Source: Mobula hypostoma (taxonomy: Eukaryota). From it: 64,000 nucleotides of DNA. Below, piece by piece: positions 1 through 64,000 of this stretch. The stretch's first letter is position 1; each line of letters begins with the position of its first letter. The notes beneath the pieces were generated by a model. The model was not told the DNA's origin. It searched no databases and was given only the letters and a program-made list of their open reading frames with translations. Location of the stretch: contig NC_086097.1 in assembly GCF_963921235.1 (NCBI RefSeq), positions 118,422,001-118,486,000 on the forward strand, in the 5' to 3' direction. The position numbers were made by a program, and so were the translations under genes.

Positions 1-1762
1 AGAAAAAGTTAACCATTGGAAGAGCATAACCCTCCATGGAGGACATCTCTATGATCTGAGCAGACTAGATGTTGATAAGCAAATGTCAAATGCTTGAGCA
101 GAAATAGAGGGCTTCCTTGTGGCAAAACAGGACCAGGTGGTAAACACACAAAAAAAATCAAAATTACATAATAAAAGACCAAAAAATTAAACATGATGAA
201 TGCAGAAAATGCCAAGAGAGAACAGAAACAATCCAACACATTATAGGATCCTGCAGCAGTTTACACAATCTGATTACTCACACTGGCACAATTAAGTGGC
301 AAACATCATTCACCAAAACCATGCTTTAAAATACGAAGTCATAAAACACACCATACCTTACTATAAATACAAGCCTGATCCAGTTTTAGAGGCAGAGTCC
401 TACAAATGTTATTATGACAGACCAGATCATCCATAATAACTGTCCTAATATAATATGATAGGATACAAGCAAGAACAACTTACTTAATAGAAATGGCCAT
501 TCTAAATATACATAGCTTACAGAAATCAATAAGTGAAAAACACCAAAAATATGCTGAATTAAACAAGGAAATTGAAAGACTATGGAACAAGTTTGCGGAT
601 GACACGAAGCTGGGTGGCAGTGTTAGCAGTGAGGAGGATGCTAAGAGGATGCAGGGTGACTTGGATAGGTTGGGTGAGTGGGCAAACTCATGGCAGATGC
701 AATTTAATGTGGATAAATGTGAAGTTATCCACTTTGGTGGCAAAAATAGGAAAACAGATTATTATCTGAATGGTGGCCGATTAGGAAAAGGGGAGGTGCA
801 ACGAGACCTGGGTGTCATTATACACCAGTCATTGAAAGTGGGCATGCAGGTACAGCAGGCGGTGAAAAAGGCGAACGGTATGCTGGCATTTATAGCGAGA
901 GGATTCGAGTACAGGAGCAGGGAGGTACTACTGCAGTTGTACAAGGCCTTGGTGAGACCACACCTGGAGTATTGTGTGCAGTTTTGGTCCCCTAATCTGA
1001 GGAAAGACATCCTTGCCATAGAGGGAGTACAAAGAAGGTTCACCAGATTGATTCCTGGGATGGCAGGTCTTTCATATGAAGAAAGACTAGATGAACTGGG
1101 CTTGTACTCGTTGGAATTTAGAAGATTGAGGGGGGATCTGATTGAAACGTATAAGATCCTAAAGGGATTGGACAGGCTAGATGCGGGAAGATTGTTCCCG
1201 ATGTTGGGGAGGTCTAGAACGAGGGGTCACAGTTTGAGGATAGAGGGGAAGCCTTTTAGGACCGAGGTTAGGAAAATCTTCTTCACACAGAGAGTGGTGA
1301 ATCTGTGGAATTCTCTGCCACAGCAAACTGTTGAGGCCAGTTCATTAGCTATGTTTAAAAGGAAGTTAGATATGGCCCTTGTGGCTACAGGGGTCACGGG
1401 GTATGGAGGGAAGGCTGGGTTCTGAGTTGGATGATCAGCCATGATCATAATAAATGGCGGTGCAGGCTCGAAGGGCCGAATGGCCTACTCCTGCACCTAT
1501 TTTCTATGTTTCTATGTTTCTATGAACAGGGCATACAATGTCCCAATAGTTATATCTACAGCTGATATCATTCCAATATCTCTACACAGTAGCAATAAGC
1601 AATTAGGCCTATAAGCAATATTTATATAAATCTTCACAAAGCAACAATATTGAACACCACTAGAATTGTCTGAGAGTTCCTAGCAATTGAGAAATGAATG
1701 AGTTTGGTTATGCCTGTACCTCAGCTTCTACCAGCTTGCACGGAGGAAAAAATAAATAATTA
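1..1762 (+). mobile_element. R4/Dong-clade (restriction-like endonuclease) non-LTR retrotransposon, 3' remnant, interrupted by a CR1 at 590-1523
   Basis: Manual translation gives WKSITLHG..EIEGFLVAKQDQVVNT, CCHC-type finger CRKCQERTETIQHIIGSC and a PD-(D/E)xK-like region LIEMAILN..EKHQKYAELNKEIERLW. After the CR1 it resumes with NVPIVIST..NLHKATILNTTRIV, a short 3'UTR and an aataaataat tail. Confidence 0.8.
590..1523 (+). mobile_element. Young CR1 LINE (family A), 5'-truncated
   Basis: RT C-terminal half (KFADDTKLGG..WQMQFNVDKC..LVRPHLEYCVQFWSP) and (tttctatg)n tail; near-identical to the copies at 30587-34333 and 58862-59664. Confidence 0.95.
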
Positions 1763-3009: not shown

Positions 3010-3890
3010 ACTGAGAAGGAAGGGGAAGATGCCAGATAGAAAGGTGGAGGGAATGGAAGGTGGCTAGCTGGAAAATGATAGATGAAGCGAGGTGGGTGGG
3101 AAAAGTCAGGGGCTAGAGAAAGGGAAGGAGGGAAAATCTGGGGGGAAGTGATAGGCAGGTGAGAAGAGTTAAAAGTTCAGGGTGGAGAACGGAGGAAGGG
3201 AGGACAGGTGGAAACATTTTTTACTGGAAGGAGAAATTGATATTCATGCCATCAGTTGAAGGCTACCCAGACAGGATATAAAGTGTTTCTCCTCCACACT
3301 GAGGGTGGTCTCATCTTAGTATATTTTCCAACATGTTGGAATGAGAATGGGAATAGGAATTAAAGATTTTTGGCCACCGTGAAGTTTCACGTGGTGGATG
3401 GAACAGAGATGCTCCATGAGGCAGTCTCCGAATTATGACTGGTCTCACCAATACAGAGAAGGCTGCATCAGGAACATTGTACTCAATAGGCAACCCCAAC
3501 AGATTTTCAGGTGAAGTTTTGCCTCACCTGGAGTGACTGTTTGGGGCCCTGAATGGAGATGAGGGATGAGGTGCATTGGCAGGTGGAGCACTTAGGCCAC
3601 TTGCAGGGATAAGTGCCAGGAGAGAGAATAGTTGAGAGGTGCGAATAGACAAGGGAATCATGGAGGGAGCGATCCCTGTGGAAAATGGACAGGGGTGGGA
3701 AGGTAGAGATATGTTTATTGGTTGGATGCCTTTGGAGATGGTGGAAGTTGTGGAGGATGATGTGTTGGATGTGGAGGCTGATGAGGTGGTAGTTAAGGAC
3801 AAAAAGAACTCTATCACTGTTAAGGTGTTTGGGAAATGGAGGAGATGCATTTGAGGGCAGCAACAATAGTGGAAGGAGGAAAATCCCATT
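3010..3890 (-). mobile_element. Older PLE fragment (linker, GIY-YIG, tail)
   Basis: ORF 3507-3923 contains HIQHIILHNFHHLQRHP..FHRDRSLHDSLV..PGTYPCKWPKCSTC, homologous to the PLE at 48354-49884. Confidence 0.85.
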
Positions 3891-4024
3891 TGTAAATCTC
3901 CAAAATGCCAGAATTCTAAACACTACTAGAAGAAACCGAAAGATCCCAACATTTGATAAATGACTTTGCCTGGTTATGTCTGTATCTCAGGTTTTACCAG
4001 ATTGAGCTGAGAAAAAATATTTTT

Positions 4025-5180
4025 TCAATAACAATAATAAATAAACAATAAATATCAAGAACACAATATGAAGAGTCATTGAAGCTGAGTCAGTATCTGT
4101 GAGAAAAATTCAGAAAGGGGGAAGAATGAAGTTATTCCCTCTGGTTCAAGAGCCCAATGGTTGAGAGGTAATAATGGCTGTTGGAGTGGGTCCTAAGGTT
4201 CGTGAACCTTCCTTCTGCTGGCAGCAGTGAGAAGTGAGCATGGTCTGGATGGTGGGGGTCCTTGATGGATCATGCTTTCCCGTGACAGCACTCCATGTAG
4301 ATGTGCTCAATCGTGGGAAGGGCTTTAGCAGTGATGGACTGGGCTGCTTCCACTACTTCCATAAGCATTTCTGTTCAAGGGAATTGGTGTTTCTATTCCA
4401 GGTTGTGGGCAACCAGTCAACATACTCTCCACTGCACACTTATAGAAGTATGTCAAAGTATTAGATGACATGCTGAATCTTCACAAACTTCTAGGGAAGT
4501 TGAGGCACTGCTGTGCTTTCTTCTTAAGGGAACTTATGTGTTAGGCCCAGGCTGATCTTCTGAAGTGACAACACAGAGGAATTTAAAGTTGCTGACCCTC
4601 TCTGCCTCTGATTCCCTGATGTGGACTGCCTCATAGACCCCCACTTTCCTCCTCCTATAATCAGCTCCTTGGTCTTGCCGACATTGAGTAAGAGGTGGTT
4701 GCTGTGGCACCACTCAGTCAGGTCTTCAGTCTCCCTCCTATATGCTGATTCCTCACCACCTTTGATACGACCAACAACAGTGGCACCGTCAGCAAACTGA
4801 AATATGACATTGCAGATGCTCTTAGCCTCAGAGCCATAAATGCAAAGCCAGTAGAGCAGGGGACAATGCACAGAGCTTTGTGTGCACCAGTATTGATGGA
4901 AATTGTGGACGAGATGTTGTTGCCAATCTGAACTGACTGGGGTCTGCAAGTGAGGAAATCGAAGATCCAATTCCACAAGGAGGTCTTGAAGTTTATTGAT
5001 TAGTTTTGAGGGGATAATAGGATTGACTGTCAATCTGTAGTCAATGAAGAGCATCCTGAGGTATGCATCTTCACTGTCCAGTTGTTCCAAGGTTGACTGA
5101 AGAGCTAATAAAGCAGCATCTGCTGCTGACCTGTGATAGAAGGAAAATTGGAGTGGATCCAAGTCACTTCTAAGGATCAT
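4025..5180 (-). mobile_element. Rex1/Babar-type LINE fragment, decayed
   Basis: LDPLQF..LEQLDSEDAYLRMLFIDY..FADGATVVGRI..WCHSNHLLLNVGKTKEL; WIFDFLTCRPQSV. Confidence 0.85.
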
Positions 5181-28900: not shown

Positions 28901-30669
28901 AAGGATATTAATGATCTGATCAGCTTGACGCAGCCATTGAGTCCATGAGTTTTTAAAAGTTTTTGTTTAAATTGCTGCTCTGGTTATCATTAGACCACTA
29001 TAATAGTACATGTCTATTGCCGATGCAACTTTTGTTTCAATTTTTAAGCCAGAAAGAAGGATATAACTTTACAGACATAATGAAGAGTCATCCCAAGTCT
29101 GTTGCCATAACACCCTTCATTTTTCATAAAGCTCCAGGTACACTTCAGCTCATATTCTCCGCATAAAGATATATATTGTGTTGACTGGACTGGTGAGTAC
29201 CTTCAGCTGGTAAAATAATAACTGCATCATGGTCCGGTTGACATCATTATCCTGCTAATTAATGTATCTATTCATACTTCAAGCCAGTTACTGGTGACAG
29301 CTCTGGGCTTCCCTGATTGGGCACCCAATAGCAAGGAATGAAGGCATTTCTGTATTTGCTTGGAATAAATTTCAATGCACTCCTCTCCTTGGCCCCCAAA
29401 ACTAGAAAAGGTTGCTGGGCCTCATCCTGAAAAGACCAGGATATTTTCCATTAGGCTCCTGATTGTGCCTGAGTTTTGAATGTAGTGTTGCTCACTGTTA
29501 GAAATATGGAAAGGGCTCAGAAAGCAATCAGACAACGAAGAGCTTTTGTTTTGGGTCTTCCAGCCCTCAGGGTAGAACTGCCTGCCTTGTACATTCAGCA
29601 GAATTTACACCCAGGAAAGGAGTCATGTAAACTGCAGGATAAATGGTTCTGAACAAGCAAAAATCTCATAGCAGTTAGTGCATTGCTTCACAGCACCAGC
29701 TCCAAGATTGAGGTTTGATTCCCAGCTCTGCCTGAAAAGTGGTGCACATCGGTACCAATGACATAGCAAGGAAAAGTGAGGAGGTCCTGGATAGTGAGTA
29801 TAGAGAGCTTGGTAGGAAGTTGAAAAGCAGGACCTCAAGGGTGGTAATCTCAGGATTGCTACCTGTGCCACGTGCCAGTGAGGGTAAGAATAGGATGCTC
29901 TGGAGGATGAACAAGTGGCTGAGGAACTGGTGTAGAGGGTAGGGTTTCAGATTTCAGGATCATTGGGACCTCTTCTGGGGCAGGTGGGACCTGTACAATG
30001 GAGAGACGGGTTACACTTGATCAACAGGGGGACCAATATCCTTTCAGGGAGGTTTGTTAGTGCTGTTGAGGAGGCTTTAAACTAGATTTGCAGGGGGATG
30101 GGAACCAGAGTGCCAGAGCTGACAGTGTGGCTGGGGTGAAAATAAATGATGTTGAAAGTTTAAGCAAATCCACTGATAGAAAGGTTGTGAGTGGTGGTAA
30201 AAGTCTTCTGAGGTGTATATATTTCAATGCTAGGAGTATTGCGGGAAAGGCAGACGAGTTGAGGGCGTGAATTGACATGTGGAATTATGACGTTATAGCA
30301 ATTAGTGAATCTTGGCTACAGGAGGGGCAGGACTGGCAGCTTAATATTCCAGGGTTCCGATGTTTCAGATGTGACAGAGGCAGAGGAATGAAAGGTGGGG
30401 GAGTAGCATTGCTTGTCAGGGAAAATGTTACAGCAGTGCTCAGGCAGGACAGATTAGAGGGCTTGTCTACTGAGTCCTTATGGGTGGAGCTGAGAAACAG
30501 GAAAGGTATGGCCACAGTAGTGGGATTGTATTATAGACCACCCAATAGTCAGCGAGAATTGGAGGAGCAAATCTGTAGAGAGATAGAAACATAGAAACAT
30601 AGAAACATAGAAAATAGGTGCAGGAGTAGGCCATTTGGCCCTTCGAGCCTGCACCGCCATTTATTATGA

Positions 30670-33600
30670 TCATGGCTGATCATCCAACTCAGAACCCCGC
30701 CCCAGCCTTCCCTCCATACCCCCGACCCCTGTAGCCACAAGGGCCATATCTAACTCCCTCTTAAACATAGCCAATGAACTGGCCTCAACAGTTTCCTGTG
30801 GCAGAGAATTCCACAGATTCACCACTCTCTGTGTGAAGAAGTTTTTCCTAATCTCGGTCCTAAATGGCTTCCCCTCTATCCTCAGACTGTGACCCCTCAT
30901 TCTGGACTTCCCCAACATCGGGAACAATCTTCCTGCATCTAGCCTGTCCAATCCCTTTAGGATCTTATACGTTTCAATCAGATCCCCCCTCAATCTTCTA
31001 AATTCCAACGAGTACAAGCCCAGTTCATCCAGTCTTTCTTCATATGAAAGTCCTGCCATCCCAGGAATCAATCTGGTGAACCTTCTTTGTACTCCCTCTA
31101 TGGCAAGGATGTCTTTCCTCAGATTAGGGGACCAAAACTGCACACAATACTCCAGGTGTGGTCTCACCAAGGCCTTGTACAACTGCAGTAGTACCTCCCT
31201 GCTCCTGTACTCGAATCCTCTCGCTATAAATGCCAGCATACCATTCGCCTTTTTCACCGCCTGCTGTACCTGCATGCCCACTTTCAATGACTGGTGTATA
31301 ATGACACCCAGGTCTCGTTGCACCTCCCCTTTTCCTAATCGGCCACCATTCAGATAATAATCTGTTTTCCTATTTTTGCCACCAAAGTGGATAACTTCAC
31401 ATTCATCCACATTAAATTGCATCTGCCATGAGTTTGTCCACTCACCCAACCTATCCAAGTCACTCTGCATCCTCTTAGCATCCTCCTCACTGCTAACACT
31501 GCCACCCAGCTTCGTGTTATCCGCAAACTTGGAGATGCTGCATTTAATTCCCTCATCCAAGTCATTAAAATATATTGTAAACAACTGGGGTCCCAGCACT
31601 GAGCCTTGCGGTACCCCACTAGTCACCGCCTGCCATTCTGAAAAGGTCCCGTTTATTCCCACTCTTTGCTTCCTGTCTGCTAACCAATTCTCCACCCACA
31701 CCAATACCTTACCCCCAATACCGTGTGCTTTAAGTTTGCACACTAATCTCCTGTGTGGGACCTTGTCAAAAGCCTTTTGAAAATCCAAATATACCACATC
31801 CACTGGTTCTCCCCTATCCACTCTACTAGTTACATCCTCAAAAAATTCTATGAGATTCGTCAGACATGATTTTCCTTTCACAAATCCATGCTGACTTTGT
31901 CCGATCATTTCACCGCTTTCCAAATGTGCTGTTATCACATCCTTGATAACTGACTCCAGCAGTTTCCCCACCACCGACGTTAGGCTAACCGGTCTATAAT
32001 TCCCCGGTTTCTCTCTCCCTCCTTTTTTAAAAAGTGGGGTTACATTAGCCACCCTCCAATCCTCAGGAACTAGTCCAGAATCTAACGAGTTTTGAAAAAT
32101 TATCACTAATGCATCCACTATTTCTTGGGCTACTTCCTTAAGCACTCTAGGATGCAGACCATCTGGCCCTGGGGATTTATCTGCCTTCAATCCCTTCAAT
32201 TTACCTAACACCACTTCCCTACTAACATGTATTTCACTCAGTTCCTCCATCTCACTGGACCCTCTGTCCCTTACTATTTCTGGAAGATTATTTATGTCCT
32301 CCTTCGTGAAGACAGAACCAAAGTAATTATTCAATTGGTCTGCCATGTCCTTGCTCCCCATAATCAATTCACCTGTTTCTGTCTGCAGGAGACCTACATT
32401 TGTCTTTACCAGACTTTTCCTTTTTACATATCTATAAAAGCTTTTACAGTCCGTTTTTATGTTCCCCGCCAGTTTTCTCTCATTATCTTTTTTCCCCTTC
32501 CTAATTAAGCCCTTTAAGCCCTCCTCTGCTGAACTCTGAATTTCTCCCAGTCCTCAGGTGAGCCACTTTCTCTGGCTAATTTGTATGCTACTTCTTTGGA
32601 ATTGATACTATCCCTAATTTCTCTTGTCAGCCACTGGTGCACTACCTTCCTTGATTTATTCTTTTGCCAAACTGGGATGAACAATTGTTGTAGTTCATCC
32701 ATGCAACCTTTAAATGCTTGCCATTGCATATCCACCATCAATCCTTTAAGTGTCATTTGCCAGTCTATCTTAGCTAATTCACGTCTCATACCTTCAAAGT
32801 TACCCCTCTTTAAGTTCAGAACCTTTGTTTCTGAATTAACTATGTCACTCTCTATATTAGTGAAGAATTCCACCATATTATGGTCACTCTTACCCAAGGG
32901 GCCTCTCACGACAAGATCGCTAATTAACCCTTCCTCATTGCTCAAAACCCAGTCCAGAATAGCCTGCTCTCTAGTTGGTTCCTCGACATGTTGGTTCAAA
33001 AAACCATCCTGCATACATTCCAAGAAATCCTCTTCCTCAGCACCTTTACCAATTTGGTTCACCCAGTCTACATGTAGATTGAAGTCACCCATTATAACTG
33101 CTGTTCTTTTATTGCACACATTTCTAATTTCCTGTTTAATACCATCTCCGACCTCACTACTACTGTTAGGTGGCCTGTACACAACTCCCACCAGCGTCTT
33201 CTGCCCCTTAGTGTTACGCAGCTCTATCCATATCGATTCCACATCTTCCCGGCTTATGTCCTTCCTTTCTATTGCGTTAATCTCTTCTTTAACCAGCAAC
33301 GCCACCCCACCTCCCCTTCCTTCATGTCTATCCCTCCTGAATATTGAATATCCCTGAACGTTGATCTCCCATCCCTGGTCACCCTGGAGCCATGTCTCTG
33401 TGATCCCAACTATATCATAATCATTAATAACAATCTGCACTTTCAATTCATCCACCTTATTACGAATGCTCCTTGCGTTGACACATAAAGCCTTCAGGTG
33501 CTCTTTTACAACTCTCTTAGCCCTTATACAATTATGTTGAAAAGTGGCCCTTTTTAATGCTTGCCCTGGATTTGTCGGCCTGCCACTTTTACTTTTCTCC

Positions 33601-33722
33601 TTTGTACTTTTTGCTTCTACCCTCACTTTACACTCCTCTGTCTCTCTGCACTGGTTCCCATCCCTCTGTTGTGAACTAACCTCCTCACACCTAGCCTCTT
33701 TAATTTGATTCCCACCCCCCAA
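30670..33722 (-). pseudogene. CR1 ORF2 (APE endonuclease and RT), broken by a frameshift near 32514
   Basis: 402-aa APE ORF (NARSIRNK, ITETWL, GDFN, SDHN) and 565-aa RT ORF (YLDFQKAFDKV, GVPQGSVLGP, FADN). Confidence 0.92.
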
Positions 33723-33727
33723 CCATT

Positions 33728-34228
33728 CTAGTTTAAAGTCACCTCAGTAGCCCCCGCTAATCTCCCTGCCAGGATATTGGTCCCCCTAGGATTCAAGTGT
33801 AACCCGTCCTTTTTGTACAGGTCACGCCTGCGCCAAAAGAGGTCCCAATGATCCAAAAACTTGAATCCCTGCCCCCTGCTCCAATCCCTCAGCCACGCAT
33901 TTATCCTCCACCTCATCGCATTCCTACTCTCACTGTCGCGTGGCACAGGCAGTAATCCCGAGATTACTACCTTTGCGGTCCTTTTTCTCAACTCCCTTCC
34001 TAGCTCCCTATATTCTCCTTTCAGGACCTCATCCCTTTTCCTACCTATGTCATTGGTACCTATATGTACCACGACCTCTGGCTCCTCACCCTCCCACTTC
34101 AGGATATCTTGGACACGATCAGAAATATCCCGGACCCTCGCACCAGGGAGGCAAACTACCATCCGGGTCTCCGGACTGTGTCCACAGAATCGCCTATCTG
34201 ACCCCCTTACTATCGAGTCCCCTATCAC
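33728..34228 (-). CDS. CR1 ORF1 SGNH/GDSL-like esterase domain (partial)
   Basis: IGDSIVRG, VVHIGTND and DGLHL blocks. Confidence 0.85.
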   Translation of the reverse strand: MIGDSIVRGSDRRFCGHSPETRMVVCLPGARVRDISDRVQDILKWEGEEPEVVVHIGTNDIGRKRDEVLKGEYRELGRELRKRTAKVVISGLLPVPRDSESRNAMRWRINAWLRDWSRGQGFKFLDHWDLFWRRRDLYKKDGLHLNPRGTNILAGRLAGATEVTLN

Positions 34229-35525
34229 AACTGCCCTCCTCTTCCTTGCCCTACCCTTCTGAGCTACAGGGCCAGACTCTGTGCCGGAGGCACGGCCACT
34301 GTCGCTTCCCCCGGGTAAGCTGTCCCCCCCAACAGATAGCAGGCAACTGCAGGAAACATAAAGTTGTGGTGGTAGGGGATTTTAATTTTCCACATATTGA
34401 TTGGGACTCCTATACTGTTAGGGGTCTAGATGGGTTAGAGTTTGTAAAATTTGTTCAGGAAAGTTTTCTAAATCAATATATACAGGTACCAACTGGAAGG
34501 GATGGAATATTAGATCTCCTATTAGGAAACGAGTTAGGACAAGTGACAGAAGTGTGTGTAGGGGAGCACTTTGGTTCCAGTGATGATAACACCATTAGTT
34601 TCAACTTGATCATGGATAAAGATAGATCTGGTCCTAGGGTTGAGGTTCTAAACTGGAAGAAGGCCAAATTTGAAGAGATGAGAAAGGATCTAAAAAGCCT
34701 GGATTGGGACAGGTTGTTCTCTGGCAAGGATGTGATCAGTAGGTGGGAAGCCTTCAAAGGAGAAATTCTGAGAGTGCAGAGTTTATATGTTCCTGTCAGG
34801 ATTAAAGGCAAAGTAAATAGGAATAAGGAACCTTGGTTCTCAAGGGATATTGCAACTCTGATAAAGAAGAAGAGAGAGTTATATGACATGTATAGGAAAC
34901 AGGGAGTAAATAAGGTGCTTGAGTAGTATAAAAAGTGCAAGAAAATACTTAAGAAAGAAATCAGGAGGGCTAAAAGAGGACATGAGGTTGCCTTGGCAGT
35001 CAAAGTAAAGGATAATCCAAAGAGCTTTTACAGGTATATTAAGAGTAAAAGGATTGTAAGGGATAAAATTGGTCCTCTTGAAGATCAAAGTGGTTGGCTA
35101 TGTGCAGAACCAAAAGAAATGGGGAAGATCTTACATAGGTTTTTTACATCTGTATTTACTAAGGAAACTGGCATGAAGTCTATGGAATTAAGGGAAACAA
35201 GTAGTTAGATCATGGAAACTGTACAGATTGAAAAGGAGGAGGTGCTTGCTATCTTGAGGCAAATTAAAGTGGATAAATCCCCAGGACCTGACAGGGCATT
35301 CCCTTGGACCTTGAAGGAGACTAGTGTTGAAATTTCAGGAGCCCTGGCAGATATATTTAAAATGTCGGTGTCTATGGGTGAGGTGCCGGAGGATTGGAGA
35401 ATGGCTCATACTGTTCCGTTGTTTAAAAAAGGATCGAAAAGTAATCCGGGAAATTATAGGCTGGTAAATTTGATGTCGGTAGTGGGTAAGTTATTGGAGG
35501 AAGTACTAAGAGACAGAATCTATAT

Positions 35526-56980: not shown

Positions 56981-58861
56981 ATAGAAACTGAGTGATAGAG
57001 CTGTGGATGGACAGTTGGTATAAAAGCAGAGGCAGAGTGTGGTGAGACTGTCAGGAAAGTCAGGCAGATAATAGTGTAAAATTTCAGTCAGTGGGATGAG
57101 TTGCAGTGTAACATGGGGACAAAGTTAAAAAGGGCGATGAATACAGGACTGCAGGTGTTATATTTGAATGCATGTAGTATATGAAATGAGGTATATGATC
57201 TTGCAGCACAGTTAGAGATTGGCAGGTTGGCGTTGTGGGCATCACTGTATCATGGAAGTTATGGCTGGAAGAAGATTATCGTTGGGAGCTTAATGTCCAA
57301 AAATACACATTGTATCGAAAGGCAAACAGAGAGGGTGGCATGGCGTGGCTCTGTTGGTAGAAAGTTAAATCTAATCGTTAGAAAGAGAAAACACAGGATT
57401 GGAAGATTCAGTATTGTAATGGGTAGAGTTAAGGAACTGCAAGGTAAGAAGACCCTGAGGGAGTTAGATACAGAACAGCAGCCAGGATGTGGCCAACAAT
57501 TTACAACAGGGAACTGAAAATGTATGTCAAAAGGGCAATGTTATGATAGTCATTGGAGAATCCAATATGCATGTAGATTGGGAAAATCAAGTTGGTACTG
57601 ACTTTGGATCCGAAGAGAGAAAATTTGTAGAATGCCTGTGAGATGACGTTTTAGAGCAGCTTGGGGTTGAGCCCACTAGGGGATCAGCTATTCTGGAATG
57701 GGAGTTGTATAAGGAACCATATTTGAACAGGGAGCTTAAGATAAAAGGCAGTGATCTGATTATGACAGAACTCACACTGCAATTTGAGAGGAAGAAGCTG
57801 AAGTCAAATATATCAGTATTACAGTGAGGTAAATGGATAACAGAGTCATGAGCGAGGAGCTGGCCTGAGTTGATTGGAAGGGATCACTAGCAGGGATAAC
57901 AGCCAAGCAACACTGGCTGGAGTCTCAGGGATCGATTCGTATGGTGCAGAAGAAATACAGCCCAAAGAAGATGAAGTATTATAATGGCTGGATGACATTA
58001 CCATGGCTGATAAAGGAAGTCATCCAACATAAAAGCAAAAGAGAGGGCATATTATAAAGCAAAAATTTGTCGGAAGTTAGAGGATTGGGACACCTTTAAA
58101 AACCAATGGAAGCCAATTAAAAAAGCCATAAGGAGCAAAAAGATGAAATATAAAGGTATTAAAGAGGAGATCAAATGTTTTTTTATAAAGAGTAAGAGAG
58201 GTGAATGTAGATATTGGACACTAGAAAATGATACTGGAGAGGTAGTATTGGGAGACAAAAAAATAGAGGATGAGCTGATTAACTACTTTGCATAATTCTT
58301 CACTGTGTAATACATTAGTATTATGCCAGAAATTTGTGAGTGTCAGGGCAGAAGTGGGTGTATTTGCTATTGGTATGGAGAAGGTGCTCGGTGAGCTGAA
58401 AAGACTTGAGGTAGGTAAGTCACCTGGACCAGATGGACTGCACCTGAGGTTCTCAAAGAAGTTGCTGAGATTGTGGAGGTGTTAGTAATGCATCATTAGA
58501 TTCCAGAATGGTTTTGGAGGACTGGAAAATTGCAAATGTCACTCCACTCTTTAAGAAAGAAGGGAGCCAGAAGAAAGGAAATTACAGGCCAGTTAGCTTG
58601 AACTCAGTGGTTGAGAAGATGTTGGAGTTAAGGATGTGGATTTGGGGTACTTGGAGGCACGTGATAAAATAGGCTGCGGTCAGCATGGTTTCCTTAAGGG
58701 AAAATCTTACATAGCAAACCTGTTGGAGTTCTTTGAAGAAATGACAAGCAGGATAGACAAAGGAGAATGAGTGGATGTTGTCTACTTGGATTTTCAAAAT
58801 GCCTTTGTAAAAGTGCCACACATGAAGATACTTAACAAGTTAAGACCCATGATATTACAGG

Positions 58862-59664
58862 AAACATAGAAAACACAGAAAATAGGTGCAGGAGTAGGCC
58901 ATTCGGCCCTTCGAGCCTGCACCGCCATTTATTATGATCATGGCTGATCATCCAACTCAGAACCCCGCCTCAGCCTTCCCTCCATTCCCCCGATCCCCGT
59001 AGCCACAAGGGCCATATCTAACTCCCTCTTAAATATAGCCAATGAACTGGCCTCAACTGTTTCCTGTGGCAGAGAATTCCACAGATTCACCACTCTCTGT
59101 GTGAAGAAGTTTTTCCTAATCTCGGTCCTAAAAGGCTTCCCCTTTATCCTCAAACTGTGGCCCCTCGTTCTGGACTTCCCCAACATCGGGAACAATCTTC
59201 CTGCATCTAGCCTGTCCAATCCCTTTAGGATCTTATACATTTCAATCAGATCGCCCCTCAATCTTCTAAATTCCAATGAGTACAAGCCCAGTTCATCCAG
59301 TCTTTCTTCATATGAAAGTCCTGCCATCCCAGGAATCAATCTGGTGAACCTTCTTTGTACTCCCTCTATGGCAAGGATGTCTTTCCTCAGATTAGGGGAC
59401 CAAAACTGCACACAATACTCCAGGTGTGGTCTCACCAAGGCCTTGTACAACTGCAGTAGTACCTCCCTGCTCCTGTACTCAAATCCTCTCGCTATAAATG
59501 CCAGCATATCATTTGCCTTTTTCACCGCCTGCTGTACCTGCATGCCCACTTTCAATGACTGGTGTATAATGACACCCAGGTCTCGTTGCACCTCCCCGTT
59601 TCCTAATCAGCCACCATTCAGATAATAATCTGCTTTCCTATTTTTGCCACCAAAGTGGATAACT
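58862..59664 (-). mobile_element. Young CR1 family A, 5'-truncated (3' module of the 28S-CR1 chimera)
   Basis: ORF 58938-59591 is near-identical to the C-terminus of ORF 30670-32367; tttctatg-type tail. Confidence 0.95.
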
Positions 59665-59669
59665 AAAAA

Positions 59670-59880
59670 ACAAAAGTTTGGCTCGAGGGATGACTTTCAG
59701 TAGATCGCAGCAAGGTAGCTGCTCTGCTACTTACGAAACCCTGAGCCCGAATTAGGTCATCTGCGAATATTTTAGCACCGGGTTCCCCACGAGCATTCGG
59801 TGTGCTAAACAGGTTTAGAGGCGGCGCCCATCTGTCCGCGCTCCAGGCCAGTAGCAACGGCACTTCTCGCCAGCCGCGCC
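59670..59880 (-). pseudogene. 28S rRNA 3'-terminal fragment (~210 nt), retrocopy
   Basis: Minus strand ..tcgtggggaacccggtgctaaa..gggtttcgtaagtagcagagcagctaccttgctgcgatctactgaaagtcatccctcgagccaaacttttgt matches the conserved vertebrate LSU rRNA 3' terminus. Confidence 0.9.
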
Positions 59881-60936
59881 AGAATGAAGATACCAGAATG
59901 AAGAGACCATTGGATAATAGCTAGGCAGGAGGCAAAGAGTGGGAATAAAGGGAGCCTTTTTAGATTGGCTGTCTGTGACTAGGAGGGGTCTGTGTTGGGG
60001 CAGCATTTTTAACATTATATGTCAATGACTTGGATGATGGAATTGGTGCCTTTATTGTAAAGTTTGCAGATGCCATGAAGATAGGTGGAGGGGCAAGTAA
60101 TTTTGAGGAAGTAGAGAGGCTACAGAAGGACTTAGACAGATTAGGACAATGGGCAAAGAGGAGGCAGATGGAATACAATGTCAGGAAGTGCACGGTCATG
60201 CACTTTGGTAAAAGGAATGGAAGTGCGCACTATTTTCTATTTTTTAATGGGGGAAACATTTCAAAGTCTGAGGCACAAATGGATTTGAGTGTCTTCGTGC
60301 AGGATTCCCCAAAGGTTAACTCGCAAGTTGAGTCAGTGGTGAAGGGGCAAATGCAATGTTAGCATTCCTTTCAAGAAGACTAGCATAGAAAAACAAGGAT
60401 GTTATGCTGAGACTTTATAAGGCACTGGTGAGGCCTCACTTGGAGTATTGTGAACAGTTTTGGGCTGCTTATCTAAGAAAAGATGTGCTGACCTTGAAGA
60501 GGGTTCAGAGAAGATTGACAAAAATTATTCCAGGATGACAGGCTTGGCATATGAGGCTCTGGGCCTGTATACACTGGAATTCAGAAGAATGAAGGGGAAT
60601 CTCATTGAAACCCATCAGATGCTGAAAGGCCTAGGTAGAGTGGATGTGGAGAGGACCAGAGGACATAACCACAGAATAGAAAATGCACGCATATGGAGAT
60701 GAGGAGGAATTTCTTTAGCCAAAAGGTGGATAATCTGTGGAATTTGTTGCCACAGATGGCAGTGGAGGCCAGGTAACTGTATTTAAGGCAGAAGTTCTCA
60801 ATAAGTCAAAGCGTGAAAGACCATGGGAAGAAGACAGAAGAGTGGGGTTAAGAAGGAAATGGATCAGCCATAATCAAATGGTGAAGTAGGGTCAATCAGC
60901 TGAGTGGCCTAATTCTGCTCCAAAGTATTATGGTCT

Positions 60937-61131
60937 TGTAGCGATGTGCTACACACAGCGCTAGAATAACCACACGGAGTCGGTGAGTTGGAGTTGCGAT
61001 GAAAGAGGTTTATTCAAACTTCGCGGCCCGCTTTAAAGCCTTCCCGTTCCCGCCCTTTTTGCTGCCGGCCCTCTGCCTGCGCGCGCTGTTTCGTGAGCCG
61101 GTTCGTGGGTGTCAGAAAGTGGGTCGCCACA
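60937..61131 (-). repeat. 3' LTR, 195 bp
   Basis: Minus strand TGTGGCG...CGCTACA termini, AATAAA near 61010, adjacent PPT. Confidence 0.85.
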
Positions 61132-64000
61132 TAACCCCCCCCGCAGAACCGGTGATACCTCCCCCAATGTCCACAGTCTGGATCAGCCTCTGTTTGGGAG
61201 GTCTGCCCCTGCGCCGCGGTGCCTGAGCCTGGACCGGTTGCGCCAAGTCCACATGGGCCGGTTTGAGTCGGTCCACCGTGAAAACCACCTCTCTCCCCCC
61301 AATGTCCAGCACAAACGTGGACCCGTTGTTGCTGATCACCTTAAACGGCCCCTCGTAGGGCCGCTGTAGCGGTGCCCGGTGTCCGCCCCGTCGTACAAAA
61401 AGAAACTTACAGTTCTGCAGGTCTTTGGGTACGCAGGTCGGGCTCTGTCCGTGCTGTGAAGTGGGTATGGGGGCCAGGTTACCGAGCCTCTCACGTAGTC
61501 TGTCCAGGACTGCTGTGGGTTCTTCCTCTTGCCCCCTTGGGGCTGGTATGAACTCTCCTGGGACGACCAGGGGCCATATGCGTACACCAACTCGGCCGAC
61601 GAGGTGCATAGATCCTCTTTGGGCGCCGTGCGGATTCCGAGCAGGACCCAGGGAAGTTCGTCCACCCAGTTAGTCCCCTCCAGGCGGGCCATGAGAGCCG
61701 ATTTCAGGTGACGGTGGAAGCGCTCCACTAGTCCGTTCGACTGTGGGTGGTAGGCAGTTGTGTGGTGTAGCTGTGTTCCTAAAAGTCTGGCCATAGCCGA
61801 CCACAGGCTGGAGGTGAACTGGGCACCCCTGTCGGAGGTAATGTGGGCCGGTACCCCGAAGCGGGCTACCCAGCTTGCGATCAGTGCTCGGGCGCAGGAT
61901 TCGGAGGTGGTGTCGCTGAGCGGGACTGCCTCTGGCCATCTGGTGAACTGGTCTACCATAGTTAGGAGGTACCGTGCTCCTCGTGACACTGGCAGGGGCC
62001 CCACGATATCCACATGAATGTGGTCGAACCTCTGGTGGGTGGGTTCGAACCGCTGCGGTGGAGCCTTGGTATGCCGCTGCACCTTGGCCGTTTGGCACTG
62101 CATGCACGTTTTGGCCCATTCACTGACCTGTTTACGAAGTCCATGCCACACGAACCTGTTGGAGACCAGCCGGACAGTTGTCCTGATGGAGAGGTGCGCT
62201 AAGTTGTGAATGGATTCGAACACCCGCCGGCGCCAGGCTGCTGGAACGACGGGGCGGGGTTGGCCAGTAGCTACGTCACATAGTAGGGTCCTCTCACCTG
62301 GGCCTACGGGGAGGTCTTGGAGCTGCAAACCGGAGACTGCAGTCCTGTAACTGGGGGTCTCAGTGTCTGCCTGCTGTGCCTCTGCCAGCGCTGCATAGTC
62401 CACCCCCTGGGACAGGGCCTGTATGGTGGGTCTGGATAGTGCGTCCGCCACGACATTGTTCTTTCCAGAGACATGCCGGATGTCCGTCGTGTACTCGGAG
62501 ATGTAGGACAGATGTCGCTGCTGGCGGGACGACCAGGGGTCGGACACCTTAGTGAACGCAAAGGTAAGCGGTTTGTGGTCAGTGAACGCGGTGAAGGGCC
62601 TACCTTCTAAGAAGTACCTGAAATGCCGGATTGCCAGGTATAGTGCCAATAGCTCCCTGTCGAAAGCACTGTATTTGAGTTCGGGTTTGAGTAGGTGTTT
62701 GCTGAAGAACGCCAGGGGTTGCCAGCGACCCTCGATGAGTTGTTCCAGCACTCCACCGACTGCTGTGTTGGATGCCTCCACCGTGAGGGCAGTAGGAACG
62801 TCCGTTCTGGGGTGCACTAGCATCACGGCGTTTGCCAAGGCTTCTTTGGTTTTAACGAAAGCGGTTGCGGCCTCTTCGTTCCAGGTAATGTCCTTGCCCT
62901 TACCCGACATTAGAGTGAACAAGGGGCGCATGGTTCGGGCTGCTGAGGGGAGGAAACGGTGGTAGAAATTCACCATACCCACGAATTCCTGCAAGCCTTT
63001 GATTGTGTTGGGTCGGGGGAAGTGGCGGACCACGTCTACCTTGGCGGGCAGCGGGGTTGCCCCGCCTTTAGTAATCCTGTGGCCCAGGAAGTCGATGGTG
63101 TCGAGTCCGAACTGGTATTTGGCCGGGTCGATTGTAAGGCCAAATTCGCTCAGGTGGGCGTAGAGTTGACGGAGGTGGGACAGATGCTCCTGCCGACTAC
63201 TGCTGGCTATGAGGATGTCGTCCAAGTAGATGAATGCAAAGTCCAGGTCGCGTCCCACCGCGTCCATTAGCCGCTGGAAAGTCTGTGCGGCATTCTTTAG
63301 ACCAAACGGCATTCGGAGGAATTCGAGAAGTCCGAACGGGGTGATAAGTGCTGTTTTGGGGATGTCGTCCGGATGTACAGGGATTTGATGGTATCCCCGG
63401 ACGAGGTCTACCTTGGAAAAGATCCTTGCGCCGTGTAGGTTTGCTGCGAAGTCTTGAATGTGCGGCACAGGGTAGCGGTCTGGCGTTATAGCCTCGTTCA
63501 GTCTGCGGTAGTCACCGCATGGTCTCCAGCCCCCCGTTGCCTTGGGCACCATGTCAAGGGGGGAGGCCCATGGGCTGTCGGACCGTCGTATGATCCCTAA
63601 TCCCTCCATCTTCTTGAACTCCTCCTTCGCCAGTCGGAGCTTGTCCGGGGGAAGCCTTCGAGCACGGGCGTGGTGGGGTGGTCCCTGGGTCGGGATGTGG
63701 TGCTGTACTCCGTGTCTGGGCATGGCTGCCGTGAACTGCGGTGTCAGTACTGATGGGAAATCCGCCAGGACCCTGGTAAATTCATCGTCGGACAGCGTGA
63801 TGGAGTCCAGGTGTGGGGCTGGCAACTGTGCTTCACCCAGGGAGAACGTTCGAAAAGTCTTAGCGTGGACTAATCGCTTCCCTTGCAAGTCGACCAGCAG
63901 GCTGTGGGCTCGTAGAAAATCCTCACCCAGCAGTGGTTGGGCCACGGCGGCCAGTGTGAAGTCCCACGTGAACCGGCTGGAGCTGAACTGTAGCCGTACC
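61112..64000 (-). CDS. Gypsy pol (PR end, RT, RNase H, integrase) with one frameshift near 61575
   Basis: [75 protein letters not shown]; the C-terminus is in ORF 61112-61609 (PYEGPF, RRRGRPP). Confidence 0.9.

What the first reader, a model, noticed from the sequence alone, without database searches (positions are those of the whole stretch)
58862..59880. 28S rRNA 3' end plus oligo(U) fused to a CR1 LINE as one chimeric retro-insertion
Seen: on the minus strand ~210 nt of the extreme 28S 3' end (..gagccaaacttttgt) runs through about five extra T's straight into a 5'-truncated young CR1 (agttatccactttgg..), which ends in its own tail. The whole unit interrupts an older CR1 whose halves rejoin (..tattacaggaa|agataccag..). 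Known: ncRNA-LINE chimeras such as U6-L1 arise by template switching or RtcB-type RNA ligation, and SINE28 derives from the 28S 3' end. Inference: this is a CR1 counterpart that captured a 3'-uridylated mature 28S end, either as a one-off event or as the seed of a 28S-headed retroposon family.
Basis: partly seen in the sequence, partly recalled or inferred. Interest (0 to 1): 0.82.

Follow-up and report, generated by a model that had tools for sequence, protein, structure and literature searches.

The report
rRNA end fused to CR1 retrotransposon
The last 213 bases of 28S ribosomal RNA, followed by five T's that neither parent sequence has, are joined to a truncated CR1 jumping gene inside an older one; it is likely one insertion in which the copying enzyme jumped onto a ribosomal RNA that possibly carried a U tail, and this genome holds several independent junctions of the kind, so it is a recurring accident and not a new element family.

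Summary
Confirmed. Window 59882-59670 (minus) is 28S nt 3629-3841, ending at the mature 3' end. Five T's absent from the rDNA 3'ETS and from CR1 join it to a 5'-truncated young CR1 (59664-58862), inside an older CR1 whose halves rejoin (2-nt overlap plus a locus-templated filler). Three of four differences from rDNA are CpG transitions, so an assembly artefact is unlikely; public contigs did not settle read support. It is not a family: 8 dispersed copies stop at the mature 28S end, each joined to a different retroposon site (5 CR1 3' parts, 3 SINE-like heads; 5 of 8 pass a blind rule). Four or more extra T's occur at 3 of 10 rRNA/CR1 junctions versus 0 of 36 plain CR1 junctions, and one lies at the 18S site matching a uridylated decay intermediate reported in human cells. 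Best reading: a reverse-transcriptase template jump onto a U-tailed rRNA end (0.5); main rival: A's added by the enzyme itself (0.25). 28S/L1 chimeras are published for human; the CR1 clade, mature-end capture and extra T's differ. The scan noted rRNA-LINE chimeras before in two other genomes.

The parts
59670..59882 (-). 28S rRNA nt 3629-3841 of the genome's own rDNA, ending at the mature 3' end; 5' end at the first base of the 5-nt loop of a predicted 6-bp GC hairpin
   Evidence: 4 differences, 3 are C>T at CpG; fold
59665..59669 (-). Five extra T's, templated by neither rDNA 3'ETS nor CR1
   Evidence: (10 of 10 array copies continue CGGCC)
58862..59664 (-). 5'-truncated young CR1-type LINE: last ~240 codons of ORF2 (one premature stop), 3' UTR and short-repeat tail; tail end overlaps the target by about 4 nt
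   Evidence: (aa 387-627 of the window's longer copy, 96%)
59883..59886 (+). 4-nt filler at the 5' junction; with 4 flanking bases on each side it forms a 12-bp copy (59879-59890) of target DNA at 59893-59904
   Evidence: sequence; the copied word carries this locus's own variants, differing from the other old-CR1 copies printed
59887..59888 (+). 2-nt target-site duplication (AA), partner at 58863-58864
   Evidence: intact old-CR1 copies overlap by 2-3 nt across the insertion
58024..58864 (+). Older CR1, upstream half (start not mapped; reaches at least 58024)
59887..60933 (+). Older CR1, downstream half (end approximate)

Best explanation
The 28S end, the five T's and the truncated CR1 likely entered the older CR1 in one target-primed insertion, in which the CR1 reverse transcriptase likely ran off a broken CR1 RNA and jumped onto the 3' end of a 28S rRNA molecule that probably carried a short added U tail. 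Shown: the parts, their order and orientation, the untemplated T's, the rejoining target, the filler copied from the target, and the sister junctions. Inferred steps: (1) priming at the target through about 4 nt shared with the CR1 tail; (2) copying of 803 nt of CR1; (3) jump to the rRNA end, helped by pairing of one or a few non-templated A's with the U tail; (4) stop after 213 nt at a hairpin loop (RNA break or pause); (5) the cDNA end paired with CCAG in the target, copied 8 more bases, slipped back and was sealed, leaving the 12-bp local repeat. The product is a dead pseudogene without known function. Odds: single chimeric event about 0.92; template jump rather than ligation about 0.75 of that; T's from the RNA about 0.6-0.7 of that.
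For: Single event: flanks rejoin around the whole unit (6 of 14 copies; 6 of 6 upstream hits rejoin after the CR1 tail, 0 directly after the 28S piece); 28S 98.1% and CR1 97.1-97.6% to nearest relatives. Real DNA: 3 of 4 changes are CpG C>T and none was seen in the 9 array copies that could be compared or in L012/L013 (L011 was out of register through an indel). Recurrence: the terminal 22-mer gives 23 hits = 10 array, 6 running into the 3'ETS, 7 stopping at the mature end, plus one more diverged copy (L020); all 8 have a same-sense retroposon within 14 nt by eye, 5 of 8 by a blind boundary rule against 8 of 400 random positions; 0 of 14 copies from an internal 28S window have a sense CR1 at their 3' end, 1 has a SINE-like head. 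Template switch: L013 joins the exact 28S end to the same CR1 family through a 4-nt overlap, and its flanks rejoin. U tail: 4 or more extra T's at 3 of 10 sense rRNA/CR1 junctions (L001, L015, L081) versus 0 of 36 plain CR1 5' junctions (Fisher p 0.008); L081 ends 59 nt before the 18S end, which by human numbering (1869 nt, recalled) is U1810, a decay intermediate with short oligo(U) tails in bioRxiv 10.64898/2026.04.26.720784 (section 6). 26S 3' uridylation is reported in C. elegans (abstract listing).
Against: No read or contig was seen bridging either junction, and no RNA 3' ends could be read. [quoted passage not shown] R2 reverse transcriptase adds mostly A's, at least 3 nt (PMC8857657 passage), which would read as T's here. 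5 of the 8 mature-end copies have no extra T and one has a single T. The set of 10 junctions was chosen by eye and after the fact; the 36 plain junctions join to DNA, where overhangs may be trimmed, and some may be later insertions, not truncations. The blind rule also fires at 8 of 26 internal 3' ends and 7 of 25 internal 5' ends of 28S copies, so 2% understates the background. Only 3 of 8 mature-end copies had flanks that allowed a rejoin test. The U1810 match is one case; a pattern search for more gave only L081 and two chance-level hits (3 hits, 3 in the control). Internal-window copies are older on average, so junctions there are harder to see.
Confidence: 0.5

Rival explanations
1. Same single insertion and template jump, but the T's were made by the reverse transcriptase: non-templated A's on the cDNA end, or stutter on the terminal U, then pairing with the unmodified 28S end, which itself ends in U.
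For: R2 RT adds mainly A's, 3-4 nt, and jumping needs such an overhang (PMC8857657 passages). Would explain why an RNA ending in U is a hot spot: 8 mature-end 28S copies against 2 of 10 dispersed 18S copies at the 18S end, which ends in A. L081's end is also a U.
Against: 0 of 36 plain CR1 junctions show 4 or more T's; the same paper calls overhangs of 3 nt or more nonproductive and finds jumping best with +1 or +2; L081 falls on a site reported as uridylated.
Confidence: 0.25
2. A U-tailed 28S fragment was ligated to a cleaved CR1 RNA before reverse transcription (RtcB route shown for U6/L1).
For: Same-sense, exact end, T-run at the joint as in U6/L1; RtcB joins a 2',3'-cyclic phosphate to a 5'-OH (PMC6789731 passages). 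Blunt joins such as L079 fit.
Against: Needs a cyclic phosphate or 3' phosphate, not known for the 28S end or a TUTase tail (own knowledge); L013 and L047 join through shared bases, which ligation does not favour; none of the 30 best U6 copies is joined to a CR1 part by eye, two or three are joined to SINE-like heads.
Confidence: 0.12
3. Two separate cDNAs (CR1 and 28S) were joined by end-joining repair at the same break; the T's and the filler are repair-polymerase products.
For: The 5' junction shows templated filler of the kind made by end joining; L035 has 655 nt of 28S in antisense on a young CR1 with a 3-nt duplication, which cannot be a simple jump.
Against: A same-sense piece that starts exactly at the RNA's 3' end needs a primer there; the CR1 cDNA end is the simplest one. 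8 of 8 mature-end copies are same-sense by eye.
Confidence: 0.07
4. Independent insertions next to each other, or an assembly chimera.
For: No bridging read was seen; the genome is repeat-rich (17% of 600 kb random DNA matches the ORF2 C-terminal part alone).
Against: No CR1 sequence upstream of the 28S piece, no own tail or duplication for it, CpG decay in the rRNA part, locus-specific filler, and sister cases with rejoining flanks (L013, L079).
Confidence: 0.04
5. Copy or founder of a 28S-headed, CR1-tailed SINE family.
For: Head-plus-LINE-tail anatomy resembles SINE origins; SINE28 exists in mammals (PMC4994717).
Against: The junction occurs once; all 8 mature-end copies differ in partner or joint; no promoter in the head is evident.
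Confidence: 0.02

Closest known systems
[quoted passage not shown]
   Same: 28S fragment of similar size (median 269 nt) on the 5' end of a truncated LINE, mostly same-sense (83%), one insertion event; antisense cases ascribed to twin priming, as L035 here.
   Different: Partner is CR1-type, not L1; duplication 2 nt, not 15-17; only 1 of the 18 human rows reaches the 28S 3' end (4958-5034, about 27 nt from the L1), most lie around 3636-4115; the words 'uridyl' and 'CR1' do not occur in its main text.
U6/LINE chimeras of L1, L2 and RTE clades (Doucet et al. 2015, PMC4476161; Moldovan et al. 2019, PMC6789731; passages seen)
   Same: RNA 3' end with a T-run joined in sense to a 5'-truncated LINE or to its SINE; 5'-truncated RNA part and small duplications (1-9 bp) as in platypus U6-L2.
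   Different: U6 carries a native U tail and cyclic phosphate, 28S does not; for CR1 Doucet had one unresolved turkey copy only.
SINE28 (Longo et al. 2015, PMC4994717; part 2 of 6 of the text and passages seen)
   Same: Dispersed copies of the 28S 3' end, several about 215 nt long; one table row (Xq27, 4821-5035, no tail, next to L1P3) looks like an uninterpreted counterpart.
   Different: SINE28 copies have A-rich tails and L1-type duplications; here the tail is a piece of CR1 and each joint is unique.
TUT7/DIS3L2 uridylation of rRNA decay intermediates (bioRxiv 10.64898/2026.04.26.720784; passages and section 6 seen, supplements closed)
   Same: Short oligo(U) on rRNA ends, including an 18S intermediate at A1809/U1810 that matches L081's end.
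   Different: Shown for 18S in starved human cells; 28S tails are described as very rare. No link to retrotransposition in the passages seen.

Membership tests
ncRNA/LINE chimeric insertion | RNA-derived piece joined to the 5' end of a truncated LINE | tested here: met
ncRNA/LINE chimeric insertion | One target site around the whole unit (duplication or rejoining flanks) | tested here: met
   older CR1 rejoins with 2-3 nt overlap
ncRNA/LINE chimeric insertion | Both parts of the same age, absent together from orthologous sites | tested here: inconclusive
   divergence matches (98.1% and 97.1-97.6%); no related genomes are held (header)
ncRNA/LINE chimeric insertion | Junction present in raw reads | tested here: inconclusive
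   contigs only, output cut, none of 32 listed pieces bridges a junction
U6/L1-type RtcB ligation products | 2',3'-cyclic phosphate on the captured RNA and chimeric RNA before insertion | not testable with these tools
   needs RNA end chemistry
SINE28 / 28S-headed SINE family | Many copies sharing head, joint and tail | tested here: not met
   one copy per junction
SINE28 / 28S-headed SINE family | A-rich tail directly after the 28S piece and L1-type duplication | tested here: not met
   T5 then CR1; 2-nt duplication
CR1-group LINE (passenger) | RVT_1 reverse transcriptase ORF2 and short-repeat tail without poly(A) | tested here: met
   Pfam RVT_1 E 8.5e-30 on the window's longer copy; tails
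CR1-group LINE (passenger) | Placement in the canonical CR1 clade on an RT tree; esterase ORF1 | not tested
   the label CR1 rests on recalled motifs and tail type; no reference tree was built
Uridylated rRNA decay intermediate | Untemplated U's on the RNA itself | not testable with these tools
   only the DNA fossil is seen; no raw RNA reads were offered

The most novel reading that the evidence does not exclude
CR1 chimeras in this genome are fossils of oligo-uridylated rRNA: the mature 28S end with 4-5 U's (two loci) and the 18S helix-44 decay intermediate with 4 U's (one locus). U tails would act as landing pads for the jumping reverse transcriptase, and TUTase-marked ribosome decay would be active in the germline of a CR1-rich vertebrate lineage and readable from genome assemblies alone.
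Probability: 0.35. Interest if true: 0.65.

Novelty: new variant of a known kind. Interest (0 to 1): 0.45.

Why it matters
It extends rRNA/LINE chimera formation from L1 to a CR1-type LINE, for which the papers I read had no resolved case, and shows the raw step by which rRNA-headed SINEs could arise. The junctions offer a way to test template jumping against RNA ligation (overlap versus blunt versus T-run), and, if the T's come from the RNA, genomes keep a record of rRNA tailing and decay sites in germ cells. The locus itself is a dead pseudogene.

Tried and rejected
Laying public data: only Logan contigs were offered; 4 of 21 runs were laid; two runs of one sample hold contigs identical to both flanks (58749-58860, 59934-60036) but none of the 32 listed pieces bridges a junction and 346,837 pieces were not shown, so no verdict; that sample may be the source. 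Rfam on 10 kb missed the fragment. Whole-28S search scored 40 of 574 candidates, so internal fragments are not a census. 5.8S: 2 dispersed copies of 10 hits, both run past the mature end. U6: 30 of 48 hits read; many are poly(A)-tailed with long duplications, none joined to CR1 by eye. Pattern search for more T-tailed 18S U1810 ends: nothing new. L081's target site could not be tested: its CR1 is interrupted twice within 6.1 kb. Genomic T-run variant of the 3'ETS: rejected (10 of 10 array copies; 6 dispersed copies running into the ETS show none, one has a single T; a second organism's contig also lacks it). Literature: 9 searches; those pairing 28S/rRNA with CR1, chimeric, shark or elasmobranch listed no report of an rRNA/CR1 chimera; subscription journals are mostly outside the library, and Ichiyanagi and Okada 2008 on CR1 junctions was seen only as a reference title.

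Full report
Observation. On the minus strand, window 59882-59670 is the 3' end of 28S rRNA: Rfam's LSU model is matched to its last position, and against the genome's own rDNA unit (contig C50, 28S delimited by Rfam) it is nt 3629-3841, 213 nt, with four substitutions. Five more T's follow (59669-59665), then a CR1-type LINE from codon 387 of the window's longer copy to its tail (59664-58862). All 10 rDNA array copies continue with CGGCC, and other copies of the young CR1 have TGTGA before the junction. The T's are therefore untemplated. The name CR1 rests on Pfam RVT_1, the tail type and recalled motifs; no tree was built.

Target site. The unit lies inside an older CR1 on the + strand. Of 14 other copies of that family, 6 align with the left flank ending at 58864 and the right flank starting at 59886-59887, overlapping by 2-3 nt; the other 8 aligned only in part. 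So the duplication is 2 nt. Between the 28S piece and the target sit four filler bases; with their neighbours they form a 12-bp copy (59879-59890) of target DNA 14 nt further on (59893-59904), including four bases shared with the 28S end. My reading (inference): the cDNA end paired with the target, copied a few bases and slipped back. The copied word has this locus's own variants, so the joint was made here. Three of the four changes in the 28S piece are C>T at CpG, as expected for DNA that has aged in the genome. Together these make an assembly artefact unlikely. Public data did not decide it: only contigs were offered, none of the 32 listed pieces bridges a junction, and most pieces were not shown.

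Family or recurrence. A search with the 28S piece gave 33 matches, 10 in the array and 23 dispersed. A pattern for the terminal 22 bases with one mismatch gave 23: 10 array, 6 that run on into the 3'ETS, 7 that stop at the mature end (0 control hits). One more diverged copy (L020) also stops there. The 8 copies have 8 different joints: this locus (5 T's, young CR1), L013 (same CR1 family, other site, 4-nt overlap, flanks rejoin), L015 (4 T's, another CR1 family), L020 and L021 (CR1-type 3' ends), L019, L048, L051 (SINE-like heads, labelled by eye). A blind boundary rule passed 5 of 8, against 8 of 400 random positions, but also 8 of 26 internal 3' ends and 7 of 25 internal 5' ends of 28S copies, since any piece landing in a repeat makes a boundary. 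In none of the 8 does the upstream flank continue directly after the rRNA piece, though only 3 had flank hits to test. In a same-size internal 28S window, 0 of 14 distinct dispersed copies had a sense CR1 at the 3' end and 1 had a SINE-like head (10 array, 2 orphon, 1 already counted and 1 duplicate row dropped; these copies are older on average). The 18S end behaves alike at lower count: 2 of 10 dispersed copies stop at the mature end, and L079 is an 18S end joined to a CR1 3' part with rejoining flanks (8 array rows and 1 orphon dropped). So this is a recurring event, not a family.

The T-run. Among 41 CR1 5' junctions found by rule in about 0.98 Mb held, 5 were rRNA-adjacent and were set aside; of the other 36 none has 4 or more T's directly upstream, one has 3. 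Among 10 sense rRNA/CR1 junctions picked by eye, 3 do (this locus, L015, L081; Fisher p 0.008); L036 has C plus 3 T's and L082 a T-rich stretch, not counted. L081 is an 18S fragment ending 59 nt before the mature end. With the human 18S length of 1869 nt (recalled) that is U1810, where bioRxiv 10.64898/2026.04.26.720784 maps a decay intermediate with short oligo(U) tails (section 6). This favours tails on the RNA, but it is one case found after the fact, and a targeted search found no second one. Against it, that preprint finds 28S tails very rare in human cells (its supplementary figures could not be seen), and R2 RT adds mainly A's, 3-4 nt, although long overhangs were called nonproductive for jumping (PMC8857657 passages). 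All three T-run junctions follow a U, which both models allow.

Mechanism. Best: one target-primed event with a template jump onto a U-tailed 28S end (0.5). Rivals: RT-made A's (0.25), RNA ligation (0.12; needs a cyclic phosphate per PMC6789731, and does not predict L013's overlap), joining of two cDNAs by repair (0.07; L035 shows an antisense 28S capture on the same CR1 family), independent insertion or artefact (0.04), SINE family (0.02). The 5' ends of this copy and of L013 (3629, 3634) flank the loop of a predicted GC hairpin, hinting at a preferred break or pause; n = 2.

Comparison. 28S/L1 chimeras are published for human (PMC13174262: 18 loci, 83% sense; passages, all 18 table rows, of which 1 reaches the 3' end). 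U6 chimeras are known for L1, L2 and RTE, with one unresolved CR1 case (PMC4476161 passages). SINE28 copies are tailed and L1-mobilised; one 215-nt row next to an L1P3 resembles this locus (PMC4994717). PMC4494074, PMC13343379, PMC3747384 and bioRxiv 10.1101/2024.06.27.600882 were seen as passages (section 15 of PMC13343379). Searches listed no rRNA/CR1 chimera. Earlier notes of this scan describe single decayed rRNA-LINE fusions in two other genomes.

Verdict. Real, most likely one insertion, one of a small recurring set; a new variant of a known kind (CR1-type partner, mature-end capture, untemplated T's). Interest 0.45; 0.65 if the U-tail fossil reading (probability 0.35) holds.

Noticed in passing
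L081 (G000:C1:3372798-3372927, minus): 18S nt 1644-1769 plus 4 extra T's joined to a long sense CR1; the end equals human U1810, a reported uridylated decay intermediate. Target site not testable.
   Followed up: partly
L035 (G000:C62:64564615-64565269): 655 nt of 28S (1703-2357, 100% identical) in antisense on the 5' end of a young CR1, 3-nt duplication, inside an older CR1: twin-priming-like capture.
   Followed up: yes
L015, L019, L026, L029, L048 and neighbours: 5' ends of 28S copies pile up just downstream of the triple-U at 3385-3387: 5 of 20 within 3380-3400, 10 of 20 within 3383-3455 (p 5e-5 to 8e-4 for the fixed window, 0.01-0.05 for any window). My mapping of this site to the m3U base that stops RT (bioRxiv 10.1101/2024.06.27.600882) is from recall. 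Would mean the copies came from mature, modified rRNA.
   Followed up: partly
L023-L027, L029, L030, L041, L054: Nine dispersed 28S copies have 3' ends at 3739-3762, around the linker before the last hairpin, most without a passenger element; the search window biases which copies were seen.
   Followed up: no
L016 (C9:169.82 Mb) and L017 (C91:57.92 Mb): Two copies share flanks on both sides of a 28S-end plus 3'ETS piece; the flank looks like a DNA transposon (hAT-like by recall) that captured rDNA.
   Followed up: no
C166:32462-33047, C55:2429027, C9:203143479, L044, L235, L236: Several rDNA-derived pieces start or break at 28S nt 2692-2696, just after the TTAAGG word that I recall as the R2 target site.
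   Followed up: no
L160, L162, L168-L172, L174, L175; L183, L184: U6 retrocopies with poly(A) and long duplications suggest an L1-like element is or was active; two U6 copies run straight into SINE-like heads.
   Followed up: no
L084, L085, L087, L088: 18S fragments followed within about 20 nt by SINE-like heads, some with T-rich linkers.
   Followed up: partly
window about 60937-64000, + strand: GC-rich LTR-retrotransposon-like element starting with TG at the end of the older CR1 (seen; label by eye).
   Followed up: no
window 30583-34500 (minus) and 588-1524 (plus): Two more copies of the young CR1 family; the first keeps a 627-codon open stretch with an RT domain.
   Followed up: partly
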